From the IMG/VR virus record IMGVR_UViG_3300038505_000007, positions 45,946 through 109,945 of that record: a DNA stretch of 64,000 nt; one strand, given 5' to 3'. Numbering within the stretch: the stretch's first letter is position 1; each line of letters starts with the position of its first letter. The stretch is from a virus. Below, in pieces: positions 46,531 through 57,253 of the stretch. The position numbers and the translations under genes are program-made. The notes beneath the pieces are model-generated. The model was not told the DNA's origin. It ran no database searches and saw only the letters and a list, made by a program, of their open reading frames with translations.

Positions 46531-47220
46531 TTATAATCTTTTTGATATAGCGTCCAATATATTGCTAAAAACCTGCTCTTTTGTTTGATCTTTTTCTACT
46601 AAGATGTGCTTAGTCTTCCAATGAGGAGCCATTGTGTGCATCTTTCTAGAGACTTCGTTAAAAAACTCTATACCAAGATTCTCTATGTGATCTCCTCCTC
46701 TATGTTCTGTGTTTGATCTCTTAGCTCTATCTAGCGCCCAAGATGGATTATTTGTATCAAGAACAACTATCAGATCATATATATCTAATAATGAAGTCAG
46801 GTATCTATCAGATCTAGGAGACAAACGATTTAATTCTCTTGTTACTGTCTTGTCTAGATCTTCAATAAAATTGCTAGAAACACCTAAAGCAGCAGAATAA
46901 ACCATTCCGCTTAGAGCGCCTCTGTCTTGTATCACGTAGTCATAGTTATTTAGTATGTCTTCGTTTATCTTAATATAATGAGATACTCTACTAGAGAGGA
47001 AGATGAGCTCTCTGGTGAGATTGTTAATGTTTTTTGCGTTTTCTCTATTTAAGATGCTATCCTTGATAAAGGAACCTAACCCGAAATTATTAAAATCTGT
47101 CTCTTTAGTGACATAGACTTTATAACCTTTACGCTCTAGATAGCTAGCAAGCATGTTTATATGTGTTGTTTTTCCTACTCCATCTATACCTTCAAAACAT
47201 ATATATTTAGCTCTCTTCAT
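46531..47220 (-). CDS. tmk: thymidylate kinase
   Basis: FEGIDGVGKTT P-loop, VTKE, R..H, VIQDR; likely start ATG 47220. Confidence 0.85.
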   Translation of the reverse strand: MKRAKYICFEGIDGVGKTTHINMLASYLERKGYKVYVTKETDFNNFGLGSFIKDSILNRENAKNINNLTRELIFLSSRVSHYIKINEDILNNYDYVIQDRGALSGMVYSAALGVSSNFIEDLDKTVTRELNRLSPRSDRYLTSLLDIYDLIVVLDTNNPSWALDRAKRSNTEHRGGDHIENLGIEFFNEVSRKMHTMAPHWKTKHILVEKDQTKEQVFSNILDAISKRL

Positions 47221-47270
47221 GAAGAAGATTATACTAAGCCAACAATAAAGCGAAACAGTCAAGCAAGCTT

Positions 47271-48836
47271 CTAAAACTTATTAGGCTTACTAGAACCAGC
47301 AACAGACTGTTTTATATGAGGCGTCTCTACTTTTACAGGTTTTGGAACTATTTGTTTCGGTTTTTTGATAACATCTGGCTGAGGTTTTGGTTGAGAAAAC
47401 TCTGTTTTAACAGAAGGTGATTCATTAACATTTTGTTGCTCTTTTTTACCAGCAGGAGCACCAGAAGCAGAAGCGTGCCACTGCATTATAGATTTCTTCT
47501 GTTCTGGACTAGAAGAGGACCAAATGTTGGCAAACTCATCTTTGTCCATTCCGTAAGACTCTGCTATATGAAAAGGTATTTCTTCAGCAGAAGGCTCTTT
47601 TTGCTTACGATCAACGCTGGTCACAGTTGGTTGTTTATCTTTACTAGCAGCAGAAGAGCCTATTTTTTGCTTATGCTCATTGTGAAACCTTATTGTCTCT
47701 AACTTCTGATCGTCAGACATGTTTTTCCATGCTGACTTGAACCCCTCTGGGTCTACATTATGTATCTCTGCAAAATCAGAAGGAAACTCTATAGAAGATC
47801 TCTTCTCAGAAGAGACTGTTTCCTTAGGTTTTTCTTGGTTAAACTTTTTCTTCTTTTCGTTGTAATAATCTAAGGTTACTTTTTTCTGATCATTGTTCAT
47901 AGCAGACCAGGATGTCAACATTTTCTGCGCGTCTACGCCTAATACGTCTGCTAAATCATCAGGCATGGTGTATTTTTCTTTAACTACAAATGTTGAAGGG
48001 TCTTTGCGCTTTGGTTTACTAGATGACTCAAAAACCAAATCTGTGTTTATAGAGGGGTCGTAAACATTCTTAGGTAAAGTTCCGCTCTTGGTTGCGCCTG
48101 TATTTATCTTGTTTGGCTGATCGTCTGGTATATCTTCTATATTTCTTGCGTATTTTTGCTTAATAGCGTTTTTCTTGTTATTATATTGATCAACCATGAA
48201 CTTCTTCTGCTCAGGAGTCATTCTGTGCCAAGCTTCAATAAAATTAGATGGCTCAACATTAAAAACCTCATGGAAATCATGAGGCAAAGTAGGTTCATCT
48301 TCTTGTCCCACTGCAGGCTTAAAGAGTTCTTTTTGATCTTTTAAATGATCTGGAGCTTCACCTGAATATTGTTGGTTAATGTAGTTTTGCAGATTATCGT
48401 TTAATAGTTTTTCTACTCTCTTCTTGTGCTCTATGAGCATGTTTTTGCGCTCTTCATCGCTCATCCTAGCCCAGTTTTCTTCAAACTTCTTTGGGTCAAC
48501 CCCATAAAACTTAGGCAGGTCTCTTGGATATCCTAATGGAGTAGAACTATAATCTTGATATCTCTGTTTTGGGGAAGGAAAAATAGCTGAATAATCTATA
48601 TCTTTATCTTTTTGACTCCTACTTCGAGGCTTATCTATACCAGCTCCGCCTGCGTATACTATTTTGTCTATATTTTGTCTAGCTAATTGCTTCTGCTTCT
48701 GAGACGCAGATGGGTTTCTTAGTATATCTACGTTTCTAAATAACTCATTTAGAAGTTTTCTATTAACAGATGATTTTGCTAAATTGCTGTCTACAAAATT
48801 GATAATATCTACTATCAACTTAACAATATCTTGCAT
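47271..48836 (-). CDS. 521-aa protein with five copies of a ~39-aa helical repeat
   Basis: Five P.D.....V.P..F...W..M..(E/D)QK..... units. Confidence 0.8.
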   Translation of the reverse strand: MQDIVKLIVDIINFVDSNLAKSSVNRKLLNELFRNVDILRNPSASQKQKQLARQNIDKIVYAGGAGIDKPRSRSQKDKDIDYSAIFPSPKQRYQDYSSTPLGYPRDLPKFYGVDPKKFEENWARMSDEERKNMLIEHKKRVEKLLNDNLQNYINQQYSGEAPDHLKDQKELFKPAVGQEDEPTLPHDFHEVFNVEPSNFIEAWHRMTPEQKKFMVDQYNNKKNAIKQKYARNIEDIPDDQPNKINTGATKSGTLPKNVYDPSINTDLVFESSSKPKRKDPSTFVVKEKYTMPDDLADVLGVDAQKMLTSWSAMNNDQKKVTLDYYNEKKKKFNQEKPKETVSSEKRSSIEFPSDFAEIHNVDPEGFKSAWKNMSDDQKLETIRFHNEHKQKIGSSAASKDKQPTVTSVDRKQKEPSAEEIPFHIAESYGMDKDEFANIWSSSSPEQKKSIMQWHASASGAPAGKKEQQNVNESPSVKTEFSQPKPQPDVIKKPKQIVPKPVKVETPHIKQSVAGSSKPNKF

Positions 48837-48921: not shown

Positions 48922-50370
48922 TTATTTTCCAACGTTCTCGAAGACACCGTTGAAACGAGGAGCATATACGAACAACGCGCCATAGAGGACTAACGCAAAC
49001 TCTAAAGCAGTCGTAACGATAGCAAAGTTGATCTTAGTGAGAGGAGACAACTGCTTGAACTTCATAGTCTCAGGAGAGAGATCTAACAAGAAAGCTTCTC
49101 CAAGACCGGGGAGTTTGCGTCCAGCAAGTCTGTATGTAGCATTTCCTTTAGAAGCAAAAGCTCCAACAAACTTCTCAGTACCAACAGCGCCACCTGGTGC
49201 AGACATGTATACGCGTATAGACTTAACACCTGCAGGCATGTTAGTGACAGTTAAGTCAATGTTTTGACCAGCAGTGATTGTTACAGGAGCTAATTGCAAA
49301 GGAATAGACTCGCCGTGGTCATTACGCAGAGTCACTTTAATTTGATAAGTACCTGCATCAAGAGCAGAACCAGTACCAGCGCCAGCAGCAGTTACAGCTA
49401 AAGAGCCAAGAGCAGGGGCAGCAGGGCTTACTGCAAGCATCTTAGCAGTGCTGCGAGGACGCAAGAATACGTTTGGTTTAAAATCAATTCTTCCAGCGCT
49501 AGTAGTGACGTTAGAAACACTGTAACCTACTGTTTGGTTAGCCAAACCAGGCTCAGAGCGGAACTGAGGATAGAATTGACGAACAAAAGCAGATAAAGCA
49601 GCTGGCTCGATGTGGAGTTCAGTAGGATGACCAAAGTTCTCCAAAGCAACAACTGCAAGTTTTTCGATATCATCTTGCATCAAGATGTCGCCGCGCAAAT
49701 CTTTAACTACAGAGCTAGAATCGCCATAGCCTTCAAAATCACCAGAGCGATGCAGTACATCTGTGTCGCCTTTTTTGATTTGCTTTAATAGACCGTTCAT
49801 CTCGATGCTATTAGCAGGAAGATCAGCATCAGAACCATCTAAAGCACCAGTGAGCTGGTTAAGGAAGTGAGCATGTCCCCAGTAGAGCTCGCGCTCGATG
49901 CTCTTCAACATGTGGAGAGTTCCTTCCTTAACACGCTGAGCGATGATGTCTCCGACGGTGTTGCGGACCAGTGTCATTTGGTGAGAAACTTTCATTCTTA
50001 CACCAAAGAACACGATCTTTTGACCGTCACGTACATAGATCGCATCTTCTTCCATTGGAGCTCCGCCTTCGCCGATGTAAGGAGCAGAGTCAGAGCCGTA
50101 AGAGATGATACGATTGTATTGCTCGAAAAGGTTATAAGCCTTATCGATGGAGATGCTCTGCCATAAAACGATATTTTTAGAATCAAAAGTTACACTTTTC
50201 AAGGTAGCATCTAAAGACTCAGCTTGAAGAACACCACCACCTGTGAGATCAGTGGGTTTTCCAGCACCGCCGTAACCAGCAGTTAAAGCCTTGTTCAAGG
50301 CCTCTAAGTCAGCTGGAGACACCAGCCCCTGGTTGATTCCGCTTATTAGTTGATCGATAGCCTCTTGCAT
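48922..50370 (-). CDS. major capsid protein
   Basis: Position after protease/scaffold, strong terminator, KA..AGYG...LQAESLD N-arm, EQYNR..SYG, Ig-like insertion, LYGAL C-terminus. Confidence 0.88.
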   Translation of the reverse strand: MQEAIDQLISGINQGLVSPADLEALNKALTAGYGGAGKPTDLTGGGVLQAESLDATLKSVTFDSKNIVLWQSISIDKAYNLFEQYNRIISYGSDSAPYIGEGGAPMEEDAIYVRDGQKIVFFGVRMKVSHQMTLVRNTVGDIIAQRVKEGTLHMLKSIERELYWGHAHFLNQLTGALDGSDADLPANSIEMNGLLKQIKKGDTDVLHRSGDFEGYGDSSSVVKDLRGDILMQDDIEKLAVVALENFGHPTELHIEPAALSAFVRQFYPQFRSEPGLANQTVGYSVSNVTTSAGRIDFKPNVFLRPRSTAKMLAVSPAAPALGSLAVTAAGAGTGSALDAGTYQIKVTLRNDHGESIPLQLAPVTITAGQNIDLTVTNMPAGVKSIRVYMSAPGGAVGTEKFVGAFASKGNATYRLAGRKLPGLGEAFLLDLSPETMKFKQLSPLTKINFAIVTTALEFALVLYGALFVYAPRFNGVFENVGK

Positions 50371-50390: not shown

Positions 50391-51095
50391 TTATTTAATG
50401 TTGTATTTTTCTGCAATTTGTTGTAGTTCTAGCCCAGTATCAACCTTAGCGATATCTAAGGTATCAACTTTATGACCGCTCTTCTTGAGTTCTAATAATT
50501 TGTTAACCAGCTCTGATTTGCTCAAAACTGTCTCTCCAGAGTGAGAAGACTTAGCGAGCACGCTAGTCTTAACAGAGAAACCTTTTTGGGGAAGAGGTTG
50601 GTTAGCAATCTTATTAACAACGTCAAGAAGTGAAGAAAGTTTTTCTTCGATGGGCTTAATTCGCTCATCTACATAGCTCTTTAACAAAGTCTCTGTCTTT
50701 TTAAGAGACTTGTTAAGACTAGATTTGTGCATTTCTAAAATCTCTTTAGCTGCTTCTTTTGTTTCTTCTTTGTACGGATGTTTTTTCTTCTTTTCTTCTT
50801 CGTCTTCTTCTTCTTTCTCTTCGTCTTCTTTTTCTTCTTTCTTCTCTTCTTCATCTTCTGCTTTTTCCATTTCAGAAGACTCTTTTTCTTCCTCTTCCTC
50901 TTCTTCTTTCTTATCTTTCTCTTCTTCTTCGTGCTCGGACTTTTTTGAGCTCTCTAATTCACCGTTGGCGTCTATTCCTGCCATACCTGAATCAGAGTCT
51001 CCAATTTTGCCCTCTACGGCAGATATACGAGACTTTATGAGCTCTTCAACCTCATGAATAGTCTCGTCGATAAGATCTAATAATCCTTTTTCCAT
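50391..51095 (-). CDS. putative scaffold protein
   Basis: Poly-Glu/Lys, coiled-coil, directly upstream of MCP; multiple xxK(S/A) motifs. Confidence 0.7.
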   Translation of the reverse strand: MEKGLLDLIDETIHEVEELIKSRISAVEGKIGDSDSGMAGIDANGELESSKKSEHEEEEKDKKEEEEEEEKESSEMEKAEDEEEKKEEKEDEEKEEEDEEEKKKKHPYKEETKEAAKEILEMHKSSLNKSLKKTETLLKSYVDERIKPIEEKLSSLLDVVNKIANQPLPQKGFSVKTSVLAKSSHSGETVLSKSELVNKLLELKKSGHKVDTLDIAKVDTGLELQQIAEKYNIK

Positions 51096-51118: not shown

Positions 51119-51520
51119 TTATTGACCCATGCCAAGCAAATCACTGTGTCCACGGATCATCATCGACCAAGAAGCATCACTGTTTTCTAATACGATGTCG
51201 TTAGCCATAGAAGCGCATAAAGCTAATAATTTAGCAGCAACTTCTGAGTTTAAAACGTCAGTAACAGATGTGTTAGTGTTGATAGAAGACTTAATCTTGA
51301 TTTTGCCGGGAGCTCCTACGCCGATTCCCAAAAACGGAGAAACACTGGGATCTACTCCGCCAAGAACAGCAGGGCTAACAGGCAGGTCCTCGTAAGAGAC
51401 AGTTAAATCGTTGCTACCGTTCTCTACGACAAACTTAGTAGCACTTTCAGAGTTTAAAGTTAACCCGAGCATCTTTGCGTTTCGAGCTAACTTCATTAGC
51501 ACCATAGAAGACTTTGACAT
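51119..51520 (-). CDS. hypothetical head-associated protein
   Basis: AAGGAG SD; between protease and scaffold. Confidence 0.65.
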   Translation of the reverse strand: MSKSSMVLMKLARNAKMLGLTLNSESATKFVVENGSNDLTVSYEDLPVSPAVLGGVDPSVSPFLGIGVGAPGKIKIKSSINTNTSVTDVLNSEVAAKLLALCASMANDIVLENSDASWSMMIRGHSDLLGMGQ

Positions 51521-51598: not shown

Positions 51599-53242
51599 TT
51601 ACTTATTTTTTTTATAAGAATCAGTTAGTTTTTTTAGTTGATCAAAAGATATGGGAGAAGCGCAGTGCCTGCACTTGACCTGATGTTTAAAATATACCTG
51701 ATTTTTACCACAATTGTTGCAAACAAACTCCACTAACCCTTTGTGTCCATCTAGGGACTCAGCCTGCAGAACACTGCCGCCTGTCAGGCTAGACGGAGAA
51801 CCAGCGTACCCATAACCGGCGTATAATGCTTTTTTTATATCAGAAGGTATCTTAGACTTAACTTTATTTACATACCAGTGGTTAGATATAGAGTTTTGGC
51901 CGCCGTCTTTTAGCTTTTTCCATGAACCAGAAAGACCGTTATACCAAGCATAGAAAGCATGGTCTGGGTTTATAGTCTTTTTCTTTATATACTTAAAAGC
52001 AGTGGTGGCTACATCTTTGTCAAGCTCAGGATTTGAATTAAGCAGCTCTGTTATCTTGTGGTGGTTCTTGCCAACATCAGACGCGAGCTCTGCTAGCTGC
52101 GGATACTTTTGTTTTAAGGCGTCGTCTTTAGAGACGGTTAGCGCAACAAAGTGAGGCATTAAACCAAAAGCCCCTCCTGCTTTATGTCCAAAATGTACAC
52201 TATTAGGATTTTTTATGGTTCTATGTGATATGTTCTTGCCCCCTGAGGACTCTACTTGAGCTATAGCAAAAAGTTCTGGATGTGAGTCTTTTATAGACTC
52301 CACTACATGTGCATGCGTAATTTTAGGAGTATCCTGAACATGGGCTTGTGATTGCTGCTTAACATTAGGTATGTTTGCTGAAATAGGAGCAAGCCCTACC
52401 ATCGTACCCAATATCTTTGCTTTTATGTTCTTTATAAGGTTCTCGTCGTATTGCGAGTTATCTAAGGAATAGAGTTCATCTCTTATCTGCTCTATCTCTT
52501 TATGTATCTTTACTAAGTTATTTTTAATTTTCTTGTTGATAGCCTTTTTTATGAGCTCCTCTTTAGAGGGTATCTTTATAGAAGAAGTATCCACGCCGTA
52601 TTTTGACAATATGTTAACTATTTTAAGCAAGTTAGACTCAATCTTCTCTGCACTGGCCATCCTTGTTATCTGTCTAAAGGAAGGCACATCTGTCATGGCT
52701 AGATGCAGAACAGAGTTTATTATAGCCATGTCTGCTTTATCGTCGTGTCTTGACTTATCAATAGAGAGGGGCTCAACTAAGGTATTTTGGTTAGCAGGAG
52801 TGAATGTAAGAGCAACTGAGTGTATCTTTGTCCTAGCTAGCAGTTTGGGATCAGATACGCCTCTGGCTATAACAGAGCCCTCAACAGAGGCTTTTAGCTG
52901 AAGGGGGCTATCTGTCTTGTGTATGTTTCTTAATATAGCAGCGGCTGCCCTAGCATTTGGATGGTCTTCGTCGTCAAATAAGTACCCTTTTACGTATATA
53001 AAAGGTACCTTTATCTTATTCCAGTAGTATTTCTGCCTCTCATCAGTGGCGTCCTCTTCCTTTAATATCTTCTTAGCAAACGTGATTCGACCTATAGTGT
53101 TAAAAAAGCCAGCCCCATGGTTGTCGTTAAACCTACCACGGCCAGCCTCTAATTCAGATATATCTGCTCCCTCTATAGATAAGACTTCTCCTTGAGTGTC
53201 TCTTATCTCAGAGCCAGCTATCATGTCTATATTTAGTCTCAT
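51599..53242 (-). CDS. prohead protease fused to lytic transglycosylase, capsid N-arm copy and Zn ribbon
   Basis: DTQGE...NDNH(His)...ASVEG(Ser); AIAQVESSGG(Glu)...FGLMP...WYNG; KALYAGYG...LQAESLD; CNNC..CRHC. Confidence 0.8.
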   Translation of the reverse strand: MRLNIDMIAGSEIRDTQGEVLSIEGADISELEAGRGRFNDNHGAGFFNTIGRITFAKKILKEEDATDERQKYYWNKIKVPFIYVKGYLFDDEDHPNARAAAAILRNIHKTDSPLQLKASVEGSVIARGVSDPKLLARTKIHSVALTFTPANQNTLVEPLSIDKSRHDDKADMAIINSVLHLAMTDVPSFRQITRMASAEKIESNLLKIVNILSKYGVDTSSIKIPSKEELIKKAINKKIKNNLVKIHKEIEQIRDELYSLDNSQYDENLIKNIKAKILGTMVGLAPISANIPNVKQQSQAHVQDTPKITHAHVVESIKDSHPELFAIAQVESSGGKNISHRTIKNPNSVHFGHKAGGAFGLMPHFVALTVSKDDALKQKYPQLAELASDVGKNHHKITELLNSNPELDKDVATTAFKYIKKKTINPDHAFYAWYNGLSGSWKKLKDGGQNSISNHWYVNKVKSKIPSDIKKALYAGYGYAGSPSSLTGGSVLQAESLDGHKGLVEFVCNNCGKNQVYFKHQVKCRHCASPISFDQLKKLTDSYKKNK

Positions 53243-53626: not shown

Positions 53627-53956
53627 TTATCTGGATTCCTTTATAGTCTTGTTCAACTTTAACTTGTTCTTTGCTTTCTTCTCTATGTTTCTAACAGTAT
53701 CCACCGATATATTAAGCAGTGCCGCAATCTCTATCTCAGAGAGAGTCTCTTCTGGACCCAGCTTGTCGTACGCTAGCTTAAAAAAGCAATAACAAGCACT
53801 TTGGCTATCTACAGCCCATGGGCAACCAGGAAGGTTGTTTTCTTCCTCCTCTGAGAGTTCTTTTCCTGCCGTCCTGATAGCCCGCAGTCTCATTACAGCT
53901 AGCGGGCACCAGGTGTCAGGATATGTTTTTAGCTTTCTTGGGCACCTTTGGTCCAT
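53627..53956 (-). CDS. Cys-rich domain plus sigma-70 region-4 HTH
   Basis: TLSEIEIAALLNISVDTVRNIEKKAKNKL; five N-terminal Cys. Confidence 0.75.
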   Translation of the reverse strand: MDQRCPRKLKTYPDTWCPLAVMRLRAIRTAGKELSEEEENNLPGCPWAVDSQSACYCFFKLAYDKLGPEETLSEIEIAALLNISVDTVRNIEKKAKNKLKLNKTIKESR

Positions 53957-54564: not shown

Positions 54565-55350
54565 TTAGTTCTTGCTCATCATTTTTTTATACAAAGCTTT
54601 ATAAAACTTTATCTCTTCTTGTGATAAAGTCTCTAAGTTAGCCGAACTATCGTCTTTACTGAACAAAGAATCCAACATCTTATTAAGAAAACCCCTTATT
54701 TGCTCCTCAATAAAATCATAATGCTCACCAGTCTGTTTAATGATTCTTTTTGAAAGAATAAGATTTATAGCATTAGCTCTCTCTAGCTTAATTTGCTGAG
54801 GAGACTTATGTGGAACAGAGGTCTTGCTAGACTTAGCGTCAGAGTTTTCCTTGCTTTTACTCTCAGCATTTTTAGAAGCCGGCTGGTCAACAAAATCTTT
54901 TAATGTCTTTTTAACAAAACCAAACTCATCAGCCATGGATAAGAATAACTTTCTAGCGATATTAAACTGATTCTTATCAAATGGCTCATTATTAGCCACA
55001 CACCTGTTCCATAAAGCCAACACGTCTGGATCGTACATCAATATGCGCTGCGTGTCCAGCTTGTCTTCAACCTGCCTAATAAGCATTATGTCTTCTTTGG
55101 ATAACTTAGGCTTTCTATTGTAGACAAAAGGCCAAACCAGCTCACCGTAATGAGACCTATCAAGCACTAAACCAACAGGTTCATCTCTGGATGACATTAA
55201 TAAGTCTATTATCTGAGCCTTGTATTCTTCGCTTGACATCTCTGCAGGAGGAGCACCTAGATGCACCACGCTATAACCTTCTGACTCTAGCTTGGACGCA
55301 ACAGTGCTCTTACCTGTTCTATCCATTCCTTCTAGTATTATCAAAGACAT
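54565..55350 (-). CDS. deoxynucleoside monophosphate kinase (thymidylate-kinase-like, second copy)
   Basis: ILEGMDRTGKST, LVLDRSHYGELVW. Confidence 0.8.
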   Translation of the reverse strand: MSLIILEGMDRTGKSTVASKLESEGYSVVHLGAPPAEMSSEEYKAQIIDLLMSSRDEPVGLVLDRSHYGELVWPFVYNRKPKLSKEDIMLIRQVEDKLDTQRILMYDPDVLALWNRCVANNEPFDKNQFNIARKLFLSMADEFGFVKKTLKDFVDQPASKNAESKSKENSDAKSSKTSVPHKSPQQIKLERANAINLILSKRIIKQTGEHYDFIEEQIRGFLNKMLDSLFSKDDSSANLETLSQEEIKFYKALYKKMMSKN

Positions 55351-55360
55351 CTAATGTCTC

Positions 55361-57253
55361 CTACTTTTCTTCGTCTAACTTGTTAATAGTATTTGCTACT
55401 ACTTTTCCATCTATATTGTTAGCCTTTGTAGCCCCAAACTCCTTAGCAGACTCTCTTAATGACGACTGTTCTGAAGAATCTGGTGCTTGTTGTTCACCTT
55501 CACCCTGAGAGGCAGCCATTTGCTGCATCTGCATCATTTGTTCTTGCTGCTCTTGAAGAGCTTTCTTCTGCTCTTTAGCGTTTTCAATAGCTAATATAGT
55601 TTGTTGCCAAGCTAGGAAAGCACTGTCGCCTGGTATGTACGCGAGCTCTTTTCTCCTAGATGCTCCAACGTCTCCAAAAAATATCTCCCTGATCTCACCT
55701 CTTGTGTAGTTCTTCTCTACAAGAGCCCAAAATGCTTGGTTTAGAGGAAGATCCGCAGCTGGTGTCTTTAATGTAGGCCTTTGAGCGGCTGTAAGGAGGT
55801 CGTTCATACTTCTCCATACAGTCATCTCTGCTTGCATCAAAGCAACATTCGTCTGCGCCGTCTCATCTGTGTAACCTGTAAATACAAACATATATTTTTC
55901 AGCAAGCGCTGGGTCAATAGCAGGAATAATATCTGAGTTAACAAGATCTTCAATGAACATCAGGATAGGATATAAGCCTCTTTCTCTTGAGTAGGCAATC
56001 TTGTATTCGTTATTTGCCTGCTGAGAAGGAGATCTTCCTGTACCAGAAGAAAGATAATCTAAGCCTAGCTCTACCGGGTCAATCTGAAACATAGAGCAAA
56101 CAACCCGCATCAAATGGTTGTTAAAATTAATGTACTCCATCTCACGGGCAGACGCAGACATAGGAACCCACTGCACATCATCCAAGCCCGCAACAATAGG
56201 CGTCCTCCATGCATGTTGATGCCCAGATATTGAGTTATAGAACTGCCTTCTAAAAGCAGCAAGCTGGTCTTGTGTCACTGTTCCTTTTAAGTGCAATATG
56301 CCTCTTGCTGCATAACCGTGAGTAAAAAAATTAGCGTTATACGATTCAACATTTATATGGTTTGTTATATTTATGATAGCTAACTCAAGCGGGGAATAGC
56401 AGTACCCATTTAAATCTACAAAGTTCTGCGGGTTAAATAGCTTAAATATCATGTCTTCGTCGCCGAAGTACACCATCTCGTTCTTATCGTAAGAGAGCTG
56501 GACATATTTATAATAACCAATATCAGCGTCATTTAACGCGTACTCAGCCGACGGATCATTAGAGCTCTTAGGTTTAAACAATGCAGTATTATTTTTTAAT
56601 GACTGCTCTATCTGCTCTCTTGAGATATTTTTGTTCACTAGATAAACAGACTCAGCAGGAAGAGGCCTAAACCTATGTAAGCCTCCGTTTCGAGTCTTGA
56701 TCTTTTCTATAGCTACGTGCCCAAAAGTAAGAGCATCTCTCACGATGAGCTTAAGAAACTCACCAAAAAGCATCCTATCTTCAGCTGGAGTACCCTCTCG
56801 TCTGCCGCAATTATAAATAAAATCTTCTAATGCAGCTATCTCTTGCAGCTCTTCTTGCGTATACTCGCTATTCTTGTCTCTCTTGACTACCCTAAAACCA
56901 GTCTCAAATCTCCTATGCTCTGGCCTAGAAAAACGCAACAAAGTGTCTACTCTTGTTTGAATTATAGTAGACACAAGCCAGTCTCTCATAGAGACATCTT
57001 TTAATGTCTTATTGCTTAGACCTGAAAGTTTGTGCTTATATGTACCACTAACACCAGAATTATCGAAATATGGGTCCTCAATGATCGCCTTCCTACCTAC
57101 AATCTCTTTGTCATAAGGTCTCTCAGGCTCATCTGGTAAAGAGTCAGCAAGACCAGAGGAAGGAGATGGAGCAGGATATGAGTTTATCTTTTGCAGAGAT
57201 TCTTCAGAGATTTGAACCTTATTGCTCTTGAACAAGAAATCAAAAATACCCAT
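55361..57253 (-). CDS. portal protein
   Basis: Follows TerL; LRPL-like FRPLP, YSPLELA, NANFF..G...RGIL, FQIDPVELG. Confidence 0.9.
   Translation of the reverse strand: MGIFDFLFKSNKVQISEESLQKINSYPAPSPSSGLADSLPDEPERPYDKEIVGRKAIIEDPYFDNSGVSGTYKHKLSGLSNKTLKDVSMRDWLVSTIIQTRVDTLLRFSRPEHRRFETGFRVVKRDKNSEYTQEELQEIAALEDFIYNCGRREGTPAEDRMLFGEFLKLIVRDALTFGHVAIEKIKTRNGGLHRFRPLPAESVYLVNKNISREQIEQSLKNNTALFKPKSSNDPSAEYALNDADIGYYKYVQLSYDKNEMVYFGDEDMIFKLFNPQNFVDLNGYCYSPLELAIINITNHINVESYNANFFTHGYAARGILHLKGTVTQDQLAAFRRQFYNSISGHQHAWRTPIVAGLDDVQWVPMSASAREMEYINFNNHLMRVVCSMFQIDPVELGLDYLSSGTGRSPSQQANNEYKIAYSRERGLYPILMFIEDLVNSDIIPAIDPALAEKYMFVFTGYTDETAQTNVALMQAEMTVWRSMNDLLTAAQRPTLKTPAADLPLNQAFWALVEKNYTRGEIREIFFGDVGASRRKELAYIPGDSAFLAWQQTILAIENAKEQKKALQEQQEQMMQMQQMAASQGEGEQQAPDSSEQSSLRESAKEFGATKANNIDGKVVANTINKLDEEK

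What the first reader, a model, noticed from the sequence alone, without database searches (positions are those of the whole stretch)
51599..53242. Prohead protease ends in a near-copy of the major capsid protein N-arm
Seen: protease C-terminal KALYAGYGYAGSPSSLTGGSVLQAESLD (~51748-51835) matches MCP N-terminal KALTAGYGGAGKPTDLTGGGVLQAESLD (~50206-50295) at 22/28 residues. The DNA differs at many synonymous sites, which suggests selection on the peptide rather than a recent duplication. A CxxC..CxxC Zn ribbon follows. Inference: the arm copy may dock the protease into the capsid lattice or portal vertex by mimicry. Alternatively, cleavage at K|A could release a Zn-ribbon peptide whose N-terminus resembles the mature capsid's.
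Basis: partly seen in the sequence, partly recalled or inferred. Interest (0 to 1): 0.78.

Follow-up and report, generated by a model that had tools for sequence, protein, structure and literature searches.

The report
Head protease carries capsid-arm copy
In this uncultured large phage, the enzyme that trims the capsid protein carries near its own tail a conserved, co-evolving copy of the capsid protein's cut site and first ~27 retained residues. This copy probably marks where the enzyme cuts itself and may dock it inside the immature head, though neither the cut nor the docking has been tested.

Summary
Protease residues 471-498 match capsid protein (MCP) residues 27-54 at 22/28 residues (BLASTP E=3e-10). 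Fourteen of the 22 identical residues use different codons. These are the only two copies in the 126-kb record.

The motif is not free to drift. It sits in all 116 aligned homologues and in every complete protease ORF of 80 related viral contigs. The Cys4 zinc ribbon always follows it.

The same protease/MCP pairing occurs in SPO1, Twort-like, Listeria, Enterococcus, Thermus and Myxococcus Mx1 phages, with lineage-specific residues and indels shared by both partners. Own-pair identity is 44% against 28% for cross pairs (p<1e-5). There is no excess codon identity, so gene conversion does not explain it.

The lysine that opens the motif aligns with the phi812 MCP maturation cut (K24|S25).

Scaffold proteins are rich in short hydrophobic-x-K-[S/A] sites. 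A short site therefore probably suffices for cutting, and the long arm copy likely has an added docking role. That role is inferred, not shown.

This scan found the same phenomenon four times before, in Herelleviridae genomes. New here are a large uncultured clade, a lytic-transglycosylase-like domain between the catalytic domain and the motif, the zinc ribbon, and cargo inserted on either side of the motif.

The parts
51599..53242 (-). Prohead protease polyprotein, 547 aa: catalytic domain, helical linker, SLT-like domain, arm copy, zinc ribbon
   Evidence: ORF. phrog_1028 head maturation protease E=8e-12. 634 homologues, mostly about 550 aa. AF2 domain layout.
52754..53242 (-). Catalytic serine-protease domain, aa 1-163. 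H42 and S119 are invariant. It ends at a conserved candidate site, K163|S164.
   Evidence: Invariant columns. The top Foldseek hits are herpesvirus proteases (pUL26N), but weak: E 0.03, prob 0.5-0.75. Mx1 prohead protease is 40% identical over aa 3-162. The hydrophobic-x-K-[S/A] pattern at K163 is kept in 83% of homologues.
52343..52753 (-). Helical linker (aa 164-272) followed by a disordered Ala/Gly-rich hydrophobic stretch (aa 273-303, running a few residues past this span into the next part)
   Evidence: AF2 helices 168-280 and pLDDT<50 for 273-303. A conserved K233|A candidate site is kept in 78% of homologues.
51848..52330 (-). Lytic-transglycosylase (SLT)-like domain, aa 305-465, with conserved E331-S332
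   Evidence: pLDDT about 97. Foldseek matches Cj0843 SLT (prob 0.96-0.97) and phiKZ gp144 (prob 0.85), with E about 0.1. Pfam SLT scores 15.5 bits, below the 21.3 cut-off. The domain is absent from the 326-337-aa family members.
51827..51832 (-). Predicted self-cleavage site K471|A472 (P1 Lys, P1' Ala)
   Evidence: K471 is invariant and A472 is at least 90% conserved. The site aligns with MCP K27|A28 and with phi812 K24|S25, where the mature chain starts. The hydrophobic-x-K-[S/A] pattern is kept in 99% of homologues. Cleavage itself is inferred.
51749..51832 (-). Copy of the MCP cut site plus N-arm, protease aa 471-498
   Evidence: Invariant or near-invariant K, A, A-G-Y-G, P, G, V, Q, E, S span 27 residues. 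pLDDT<50 in the monomer model.
51653..51730 (-). Cys4 zinc ribbon, aa 505-530
   Evidence: C508, C511, C524 and C527 are invariant. Two strands are modelled at pLDDT about 80. Several zinc-ribbon Pfam families hit below threshold.
51605..51646 (-). C-terminal helix, aa 533-546
   Evidence: AF2 helix 533-546. The S532, K535, L536 pattern is conserved.
51119..51520 (-). 133-aa ORF of unknown role between protease and scaffold
   Evidence: No Pfam or PHROG hit.
50391..51095 (-). Acidic scaffolding-like protein, 234 aa, with 8 hydrophobic-x-K-[S/A] candidate cut sites
   Evidence: 8 sites observed against 1.5 expected from shuffles, with none of 2000 shuffles reaching 8. Its position matches the SPO1 gp3.3 scaffold.
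48922..50370 (-). Major capsid protein, SPO1/Herelleviridae type, 482 aa
   Evidence: phrog_752 E=4e-60. SPO1 gp6.1 capsid chain 9vel_C E=2e-64 and phi812 5lii_P E=3e-12.
50290..50370 (-). Predicted MCP propeptide, aa 1-27, removed at K27|A28
   Evidence: Alignment to phi812, whose mature chain starts at S25. The propeptide is conserved in 57 related MCPs. Cleavage is inferred.
50209..50292 (-). MCP cut site plus start of the mature N-arm, aa 27-54. This is the original that the protease segment copies.
   Evidence: Nearly invariant in 50 distinct related MCPs.
55361..57253 (-). Portal protein, marking the head module
   Evidence: PF04860 E=4e-20 and phrog_12 E=3e-41.

Best explanation
The segment is a combined release-and-dock module.

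Shown here. The protease is a multi-domain protein. Its C-terminal part repeats the MCP maturation site (hydrophobic-x-K|A) and the first ~27 residues that stay on the mature MCP. The copy is kept by selection on the peptide and changes together with the MCP arm.

Inferred. During prohead assembly the arm copy binds whatever the MCP arm binds. The likeliest partner is the scaffold's coat-binding end or a neighbouring MCP subunit. This carries the protease and its SLT-like passenger into the shell. Once active, the enzyme cuts MCP at K27|A28 and the scaffold at many short K|S sites. It also cuts itself at K471|A472, and perhaps at K163|S164. Self-cleavage would free the catalytic and SLT part from a 76-residue arm-plus-zinc-ribbon piece. 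A short site seems enough for cutting, so the long arm copy most likely serves binding rather than recognition by the active site.
For: - The match is significant and unique in the genome.
- The motif is retained in all 116 aligned homologues, with conserved positions spread over 27 residues. It is present in every complete protease ORF of 80 viral contigs, whatever the length (326-995 aa).
- The pairing exists in 10 further lineages, each with E between 1e-5 and 1e-15. Both partners share lineage-specific indels. Own-pair identity is 44% against 28% for cross pairs; 0 of 100000 permutations reach it.
- Within the clade, motif position 16 co-varies. When the MCP has V, the protease has V in 6/7 cases. 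When the MCP has T, the protease has V in 5/43.
- Gene conversion is not supported. Codon identity at identical residues is 0.355 for own pairs and 0.359 for non-own pairs. In other lineages, 37-71% of identical residues use different codons.
- The cut site is supported by homology: the phi812 mature MCP chain starts right after the aligned lysine.
- Scaffolds of 11 lineages are enriched in hydrophobic-x-K-[S/A], but the residues after the cut do not resemble the arm. A short site therefore probably suffices for cleavage.
- The arm copy is disordered (pLDDT<50) between two well-folded domains, as expected for a peptide that needs a partner.
- Its distance from the catalytic domain ranges from 0 to about 700 residues. 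Cargo sits on either side of it. This fits action in trans, not a fixed geometry in cis.
- The protease is detected in purified virions of relatives (PMC5618024; PMC12282133; the Remus annotation).
Against: - No binding or cleavage was observed or modelled here.
- The MCP model was too poor (pLDDT 47) to place the arm.
- Bacteroides phage DAC16 has the same MCP and protease families but no recognisable arm copy, only an LLK|A-like site. The copy is therefore dispensable in at least one lineage.
- The enriched scaffold K|S sites are only candidate cut sites.
- Within the clade the MCP arm is nearly invariant while the protease copy varies at about half its positions. The copy could therefore be under looser, substrate-like constraint.
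- Co-variation across lineages is inflated by shared ancestry of some sampled phages.
Confidence: 0.5

Rival explanations
1. Pure substrate signal. The ~27 residues after the cut are an extended recognition element (exosite ligand) for the protease. The two copies stay alike because the same enzyme must cut both, with matched timing. The copy could also act as a pseudo-substrate that occupies the enzyme until assembly. No docking to scaffold or shell is involved.
For: The scissile lysine and the P3 hydrophobic residue are shared by the MCP and protease sites in all lineages. The protease copy is less constrained than the MCP arm, yet it keeps a scattered set of invariant residues. DAC16 keeps only a short site.
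Against: Scaffolds carry many short hydrophobic-x-K-[S/A] sites with no arm-like sequence after them. This suggests the enzyme needs only a short site. AF2 does not dock the segment onto the catalytic domain (pLDDT<50). Spacing from the catalytic domain varies from 0 to about 700 residues, which does not suit regulation in cis.
Confidence: 0.25
2. The function comes after cleavage. The piece released downstream of the cut would be a minor head protein: the arm plus zinc ribbon here, the arm plus about 970 aa in Mx1, the arm plus a small helical domain in Herelleviridae. It would insert its arm into sites normally filled by MCP arms, for example around the portal vertex. The protease would merely be its carrier.
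For: After the predicted cut, the downstream piece would start exactly like mature MCP. Some family members place large cargo downstream of the motif (L050; P0182, P0183, P0198; Mx1). The zinc ribbon is invariant. Protease-derived peptides are found in virions of relatives.
Against: It is unknown which protease fragment stays in virions. In this window the largest passenger, the SLT-like domain, lies upstream of the cut. The apparent stand-alone arm-plus-ribbon genes were on fragmentary or frameshifted contigs shorter than 1 kb.
Confidence: 0.15
3. The similarity has no function of its own. It is a relic of an old partial duplication, or it is refreshed by gene conversion between two nearby segments in the same orientation.
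For: The two segments lie 1.5 kb apart on the same strand.
Against: Synonymous sites are as different within a genome as between genomes (0.355 against 0.359). The motif is retained in every complete homologue across very distant lineages, with invariant residues. A neutral relic would have decayed.
Confidence: 0.04

Closest known systems
Herelleviridae prohead protease / MCP pairs (SPO1 gp3.2/gp6.1, Twort-like phage K/phi812/Remus, Listeria A511/P100-like)
   Same: Same protease and MCP families. Each protease carries a K|S or K|A site followed by a copy of its own MCP arm. The gene order portal, protease, scaffold, MCP is the same. The MCP is processed after the aligned lysine in phi812. Earlier reports of this scan noted the phenomenon in these phages. 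I found no paper describing it in 9 literature searches.
   Different: In Herelleviridae the copy follows the catalytic domain directly and is followed by a ~55-aa helical tail. Here about 300 residues intervene (helical linker plus SLT-like domain) and a Cys4 zinc ribbon replaces the tail. MCP identity is only about 30%.
Herpesvirus assemblin precursor (HSV-1 pUL26 with nested pUL26.5): protease, R-site, linker/scaffold, M-site, MCP-binding tail (from established knowledge)
   Same: Both have an N-terminal protease of the same fold class; herpesvirus proteases are the top structural matches. Both have a long linker and a C-terminal element thought to hold the enzyme in the procapsid. Both have self-cleavage sites at the end of the catalytic domain and before the tail (candidates K163|S and K471|A).
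   Different: The herpes tail binds the MCP and is shared with the scaffold through a nested gene. Here the scaffold is a separate, unrelated gene. The tail here imitates the MCP itself rather than the scaffold.
HK97 gp4 protease C-terminal capsid-targeting tail and K103|S104 cleavage of gp5 (Duda, Oh & Hendrix 2013 and earlier HK97 work; recalled, not read here)
   Same: Both have a C-terminal segment outside the catalytic domain that is needed to encapsidate the protease. In both, the MCP is cut after a lysine and before Ser/Ala.
   Different: The HK97 tail is reported to bind the MCP delta domain and is not known to resemble the MCP arm. HK97 has no separate scaffold.
T4 capsid-targeting sequence of internal proteins, and T4 gene 61.1
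   Same: A short peptide directs passengers into the prohead, and the head protease cuts next to it. Gene 61.1 was noted to copy the gp23 cut site and arm.
   Different: The T4 tag is an N-terminal ~10-residue leader that is cut off and discarded. Here the tag is internal or C-terminal, about 27 residues long, and lies on the retained side of the cut.

Membership tests
HK97/SPO1-type prohead serine protease (assemblin-like fold) | Sequence match to a family profile | tested here: met
   phrog_1028 E=8e-12 and phrog_38466 E=4e-4. 40% identity to the Mx1 prohead protease over aa 3-162. No Pfam family passes.
HK97/SPO1-type prohead serine protease (assemblin-like fold) | Conserved catalytic His and Ser | tested here: met
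   H42 (NDNHG) and S119 (KASVEG) are invariant in 116 homologues. Their assignment as the catalytic pair is by analogy.
HK97/SPO1-type prohead serine protease (assemblin-like fold) | Assemblin-like fold | tested here: inconclusive
   The top Foldseek PDB hits are herpesvirus proteases, but at E 0.03-0.2 and prob 0.5-0.75, with the whole 547-aa model as query.
HK97/SPO1-type prohead serine protease (assemblin-like fold) | Gene placed between portal and scaffold/MCP | tested here: met
   The order is portal 55361-57253, protease 51599-53242, scaffold 50391-51095, MCP 48922-50370, all on the minus strand.
SPO1/Herelleviridae-type major capsid protein | Full-length sequence match | tested here: met
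   phrog_752 E=4e-60 over aa 20-481. 9vel_C SPO1 gp6.1 E=2e-64. 316 phage records cover at least 80% of the query.
SPO1/Herelleviridae-type major capsid protein | N-terminal propeptide removed after a conserved lysine | not testable with these tools
   Only homology is available. The phi812 mature chain starts at S25, which aligns with A28 here.
Protease-borne copy of the MCP cut site and arm (as in Herelleviridae) | Significant local similarity between the protease's post-catalytic region and its own MCP N-terminus | tested here: met
   E=3e-10. The same is seen in 10 other lineages.
Protease-borne copy of the MCP cut site and arm (as in Herelleviridae) | The copy tracks the lineage's own MCP arm | tested here: met
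   Own pairs 44% against cross pairs 28%, p<1e-5, with shared indels. Position 16 co-varies within the clade.
Protease-borne copy of the MCP cut site and arm (as in Herelleviridae) | The copy lies immediately after the catalytic domain | tested here: not met
   Here it begins at residue 471, about 300 residues after the catalytic domain ends. In short family members it sits at about residue 255.
Herpesvirus pUL26-type protease-scaffold fusion | Nested in-frame scaffold gene sharing the protease's C-terminus | tested here: not met
   The scaffold is a separate downstream ORF with no similarity to the protease C-terminus.
Herpesvirus pUL26-type protease-scaffold fusion | C-terminal tail binds MCP and is removed at an M-site | not testable with these tools
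   A candidate site, K471|A472, exists. Binding is untested.
SLT lytic transglycosylase (PF01464) | Profile match above the gathering score | tested here: not met
   15.5 bits against a cut-off of 21.3, E=0.013.
SLT lytic transglycosylase (PF01464) | Catalytic Glu-Ser motif and lysozyme-like fold | tested here: inconclusive
   E331 is at least 90% conserved in both alignments. S332 is invariant among 35 homologues and at least 90% conserved among 116. Foldseek prob is 0.96-0.97 to Cj0843 SLT and 0.85 to phiKZ gp144, but E is about 0.1.
T4-type capsid-targeting sequence | N-terminal ~10-residue leader removed by the head protease | tested here: not met
   The motif is C-terminal or internal, about 27 residues long, and lies downstream of the predicted cut.

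The most novel reading that the evidence does not exclude
The arm copy is a portable address-and-release tag used across SPO1-like phages to load proteins into the head by imitating a capsid subunit's arm. On this reading, anything fused upstream of the K|A cut is released inside the head; here that is the protease plus a lytic-transglycosylase-like enzyme. Anything fused downstream stays pinned to the shell as a pseudo-subunit arm; examples are the zinc ribbon, HEAT-like repeats and the 970-aa Mx1 extension. This would be a natural protein-packaging system that works by capsid-subunit mimicry. It would be distinct from the T4 targeting leader, and it would be engineerable.
Probability: 0.22. 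Interest if true: 0.8.

Novelty: new variant of a known kind. Interest (0 to 1): 0.6.

Why it matters
How head-maturation proteases get inside procapsids, and are then released, is known in detail for only a few systems (herpesviruses, HK97, T4). For the large SPO1/Twort-like group, which includes therapeutic Staphylococcus and Listeria phages, the route is not described.

A co-evolving copy of the capsid arm on the protease gives a concrete and easily tested hypothesis for both steps. This window shows that the feature reaches well beyond Herelleviridae. It occurs in a widespread uncultured clade with many contigs of about 165-180 kb, in Myxococcus phage Mx1 and in a Thermus phage.

The window also shows that the module tolerates large passengers on either side. 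If the tag works as proposed, it could be used to load proteins into phage heads.

Tried and rejected
- A search for close MCP relatives in viral contigs with a single sequence found nothing. It succeeded only with a protease alignment.
- The AF2 model of the MCP, built from 34 close homologues, was unusable (pLDDT 47). The position and contacts of the arm could not be read from it.
- Foldseek with the whole 547-aa protease model gave only weak E-values. Single domains were not searched separately.
- PDB sequence search with the protease found nothing relevant.
- Apparent stand-alone arm-plus-zinc-ribbon genes (P0130, P0139) sit on 601-bp and 908-bp contigs. The second shows a truncated SLT domain and likely frameshifts. 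I therefore reject them as evidence for a separate gene.
- No third copy of the motif exists in the window or the record, so other proteins here are not tagged.
- The weak resemblance between the scaffold segment after K182 and the arm (6/14 residues) is not significant.
- Gene conversion is rejected on codon statistics.
- Nine literature searches and two full-text look-ups found no description of the arm copy. The phi812 PNAS paper is not held. The CKA15 supplement holds no peptide list.
Full report
**What is there.** The window belongs to a 126-kb IMG/VR virus record, estimated 75% complete. On the minus strand lies a head module:
- portal, 55361-57253;
- a 547-aa protease, 51599-53242;
- a 133-aa ORF of unknown role;
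- an acidic scaffolding-like protein, 50391-51095;
- the major capsid protein (MCP), 48922-50370.

The MCP is of the SPO1/Herelleviridae type (phrog_752 E=4e-60; SPO1 capsid chain 9vel_C E=2e-64). The first ~163 residues of the protease match head-maturation proteases (phrog_1028 E=8e-12; 40% identity to the Myxococcus phage Mx1 protease).

Protease residues 471-498 and MCP residues 27-54 share 22/28 residues. BLASTP of the two proteins gives E=3e-10. At the DNA level only 56/84 bases agree, and 14 of the 22 identical residues use different codons. A six-frame search finds no third copy in the window or in the whole record. The four Cys of the zinc ribbon follow at 508, 511, 524 and 527.

**Is the motif free to drift? 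No.** A search of 5.8 billion proteins returned 634 homologues, most of them about 550 aa and about 50% identical. Many sit on contigs of about 165-180 kb. In an alignment of 116 homologues the following are invariant or at least 90% conserved: K471, A472, A475, G476, Y477, G478, P483, G489, V491, Q493, E495, S496 and all four Cys.

Eighty related viral contigs were fetched. Every protease ORF that is not cut by a contig end carries the motif, although lengths range from 326 to 995 aa.
- The short forms lack the SLT-like domain.
- L050 has about 530 aa of HEAT-like repeats between the motif and the zinc ribbon.
- Mx1 has about 970 aa after the motif.
- Further variants have extensions after the ribbon.

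A profile of motif plus ribbon, searched against 1.84 billion representatives, finds 91 clusters at E<=1e-10. The module lies nearly always at the C-terminal end.

**Co-variation.** The same pairing exists in 10 further lineages, each with a significant protease-to-own-MCP match (E from 3e-5 to 6e-15):
- SPO1;
- Exiguobacterium phage EalM-132;
- Listeria phage List-36;
- Staphylococcus phage Remus;
- Enterococcus phage EFP01;
- Bacillus phages DirtyBetty and phiAGATE;
- Lactobacillus phage LfeInf;
- Thermus phage Cumys;
- Mx1.

Each lineage has its own version, with residues and even indels shared by both partners. A protease segment is 44% identical to its own MCP arm against 28% to other lineages' arms. 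None of 100000 permutations reach the observed value. This test is inflated by relatedness among some samples, but the shared indels in the window clade, Mx1 and Cumys are independent.

Inside the window's clade the MCP arm is almost invariant, so there is little to track. Position 16 still co-varies. When the MCP has V, the protease has V in 6/7 cases. When the MCP has T, the protease has V in 5/43.

Codon identity at identical residues is 0.355 within genomes and 0.359 between genomes. In the other lineages 37-71% of identical residues use different codons. The likeness is therefore kept by selection on the peptide, not by gene conversion or recent duplication.

**Where is the cut?** PDB entry 9row holds the phi812 MCP as a 439-residue chain, while the full-length protein (5lii_P) has 463 residues. 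In the alignment, chain residue 5 falls on the G of the G-Y-G triplet, which is residue 29 of the full protein. The deposited mature protein therefore starts at S25, right after K24. That lysine aligns with K27 of the window MCP and K471 of the protease.

In 9 of the 11 sampled lineages both partners have a lysine at the aligned position, followed by Ser, Ala, Gly or Thr, with a hydrophobic residue two places upstream in most. The two exceptions are the Cumys and LfeInf proteases.

Scaffold proteins are strongly enriched in hydrophobic-x-K-[S/A]. The window scaffold has 8 such sites against 1.5 expected, SPO1 has 11 against 1.4, and LfeInf has 17 against 2.1. The residues after these sites do not resemble the arm. 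I infer that the enzyme cuts after lysine in a short context, as recalled for HK97 (K103|S104). I also infer that the ~27 further shared residues are not needed for cutting.

Conserved extra candidate sites in the protease family lie at K163|S164, at alignment position 176 (an Asn in this protein) and at K233|A234. The first is at the end of the catalytic domain, where the Herelleviridae copy sits.

**Structure.** The AF2 model (116 sequences, mean pLDDT 79) shows these elements:
- a catalytic domain, aa 1-160;
- long helices, aa 168-280;
- a disordered Ala/Gly-rich stretch, aa 273-303;
- a very confident helical domain, aa 305-465;
- a disordered arm copy (pLDDT<50 for 469-486 and 490-493);
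- a small two-strand ribbon, aa 504-517;
- a terminal helix, aa 533-546.

Foldseek matches herpesvirus proteases and lytic transglycosylases (Cj0843, phiKZ gp144), with good probabilities but weak E-values. Pfam SLT is below threshold. A conserved segment that is disordered between folded domains fits a peptide that binds a partner missing from the model.

**Most likely mechanism (confidence about 0.5).** The module both addresses and releases the protease. The arm copy would bind what the MCP arm binds in the procapsid: the scaffold's coat-binding end or a neighbouring subunit. That would bring the protease and its SLT-like passenger inside. On activation the enzyme would trim the MCP, shred the scaffold and cut itself at K471|A472.

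What is shown: the copy exists, is conserved, co-varies, is under protein-level selection, and aligns with a known cut site. What is inferred: cleavage in this phage and the docking role.

The protease is found in purified virions of relatives (PMC5618024; PMC12282133; the Remus annotation). Some part of it therefore stays in the virion.

**Rivals.** Three alternatives remain:
- a pure extended substrate or pseudo-substrate signal (0.25);
- a function after cleavage, in which the arm-plus-ribbon piece becomes a minor shell protein (0.15);
- a functionless relic or gene conversion (0.04, contradicted).

One counter-example tempers all functional readings. Bacteroides phage DAC16 has the same MCP and protease families but only a short LLK|A-like site and no arm copy.

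**Comparison with what is known.** The logic resembles two systems recalled from established knowledge:
- the herpesvirus pUL26 precursor (protease, release site, linker, maturation site, MCP-binding tail);
- the HK97 gp4 C-terminal targeting tail.

The difference is that the tail here imitates the capsid protein's own arm and co-evolves with it. The scaffold is also a separate gene.

Earlier reports of this scan described the same phenomenon four times, in phage K-like and SPO1/Twort-type genomes. My tests on SPO1, Remus and List-36 agree with them. I found no paper describing it.

New in this window:
- extension of the feature to a large uncultured clade, to Mx1 and to a Thermus phage;
- separation of the copy from the catalytic domain by an SLT-like passenger;
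- the invariant zinc ribbon;
- the modular placement of cargo on either side of the tag.

**Verdict.** The feature is real, conserved and co-evolving. It is a new variant of a known kind of system (protease encapsidation and self-release). It is well suited to direct experimental test in culturable relatives.

Noticed in passing
window 51848-52330 (-), protease aa 305-465: A lytic-transglycosylase-like domain with conserved Glu-Ser is inserted inside the prohead protease. It is preceded by a disordered Ala/Gly-rich hydrophobic stretch (aa 273-303). A muralytic passenger carried into the head would be unusual for a large myovirus-type phage. Another first-stage finding on the same stretch also noted it.
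   Followed up: partly
window 47271-48836 (-): This 521-aa ORF lies directly downstream of the MCP. It holds five ~45-residue repeats of an F..W..M..EQKK-type motif. Pfam hits are DUF7026 (31 bits, above cut-off) and HMG_box_2 (below cut-off). It may be a DNA-binding head protein.
   Followed up: no
window 50391-51095 (-) and scaffolds in L084, L087-L093: Scaffolding proteins of the whole SPO1-like group are strongly enriched in hydrophobic-x-K-S/A. The window scaffold has 8 against 1.5 expected, and LfeInf has 17 against 2.1. These are probably a dense set of protease cut sites.
   Followed up: yes
window 52751-52756 (-), protease K163|S164: A conserved hydrophobic-x-K-S site lies at the very end of the catalytic domain. 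The lysine is invariant, and the full pattern is kept in 83% of 116 homologues. It sits at the position where Herelleviridae proteases carry their arm copy. It may be a second, release-type self-cleavage site.
   Followed up: partly
L050:5970-8954 (+); proteins P0183, P0182, P0198: Family members carry large extra cargo. L050 has about 530 aa with HEAT-like NPNLDPRHHEQLVND repeats between the arm copy and the zinc ribbon. Others have 350-1090-aa extensions after the ribbon.
   Followed up: partly
L085:5425-6273 (Bacteroides phage DAC16): The DAC16 protease (282 aa) belongs to the same family (phrog_1028 E=4e-27). It shows no significant copy of its own MCP arm, only an LLK|A-like site. This is a lineage in which the copy was lost or never gained.
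   Followed up: yes
window 46531-47262 (-) and 54565-55350 (-): Two separate thymidylate/dNMP-kinase-like ORFs (P-loop GxDxxGKS/T) flank the head module. The second has a long C-terminal extension.
   Followed up: no
window 53627-53956 (-): A small 109-aa protein with a sigma-70 region 4 match (PF04545, 25.3 bits, above cut-off) is encoded between the portal and the protease, inside the head module.
   Followed up: no
L044, L047, L048, L051, L057, L059: In one sub-lineage of the clade the MCP gene lies upstream of the protease and on the opposite strand. The arm copy is still kept, so proximity and shared orientation of the two segments are not required.
   Followed up: partly
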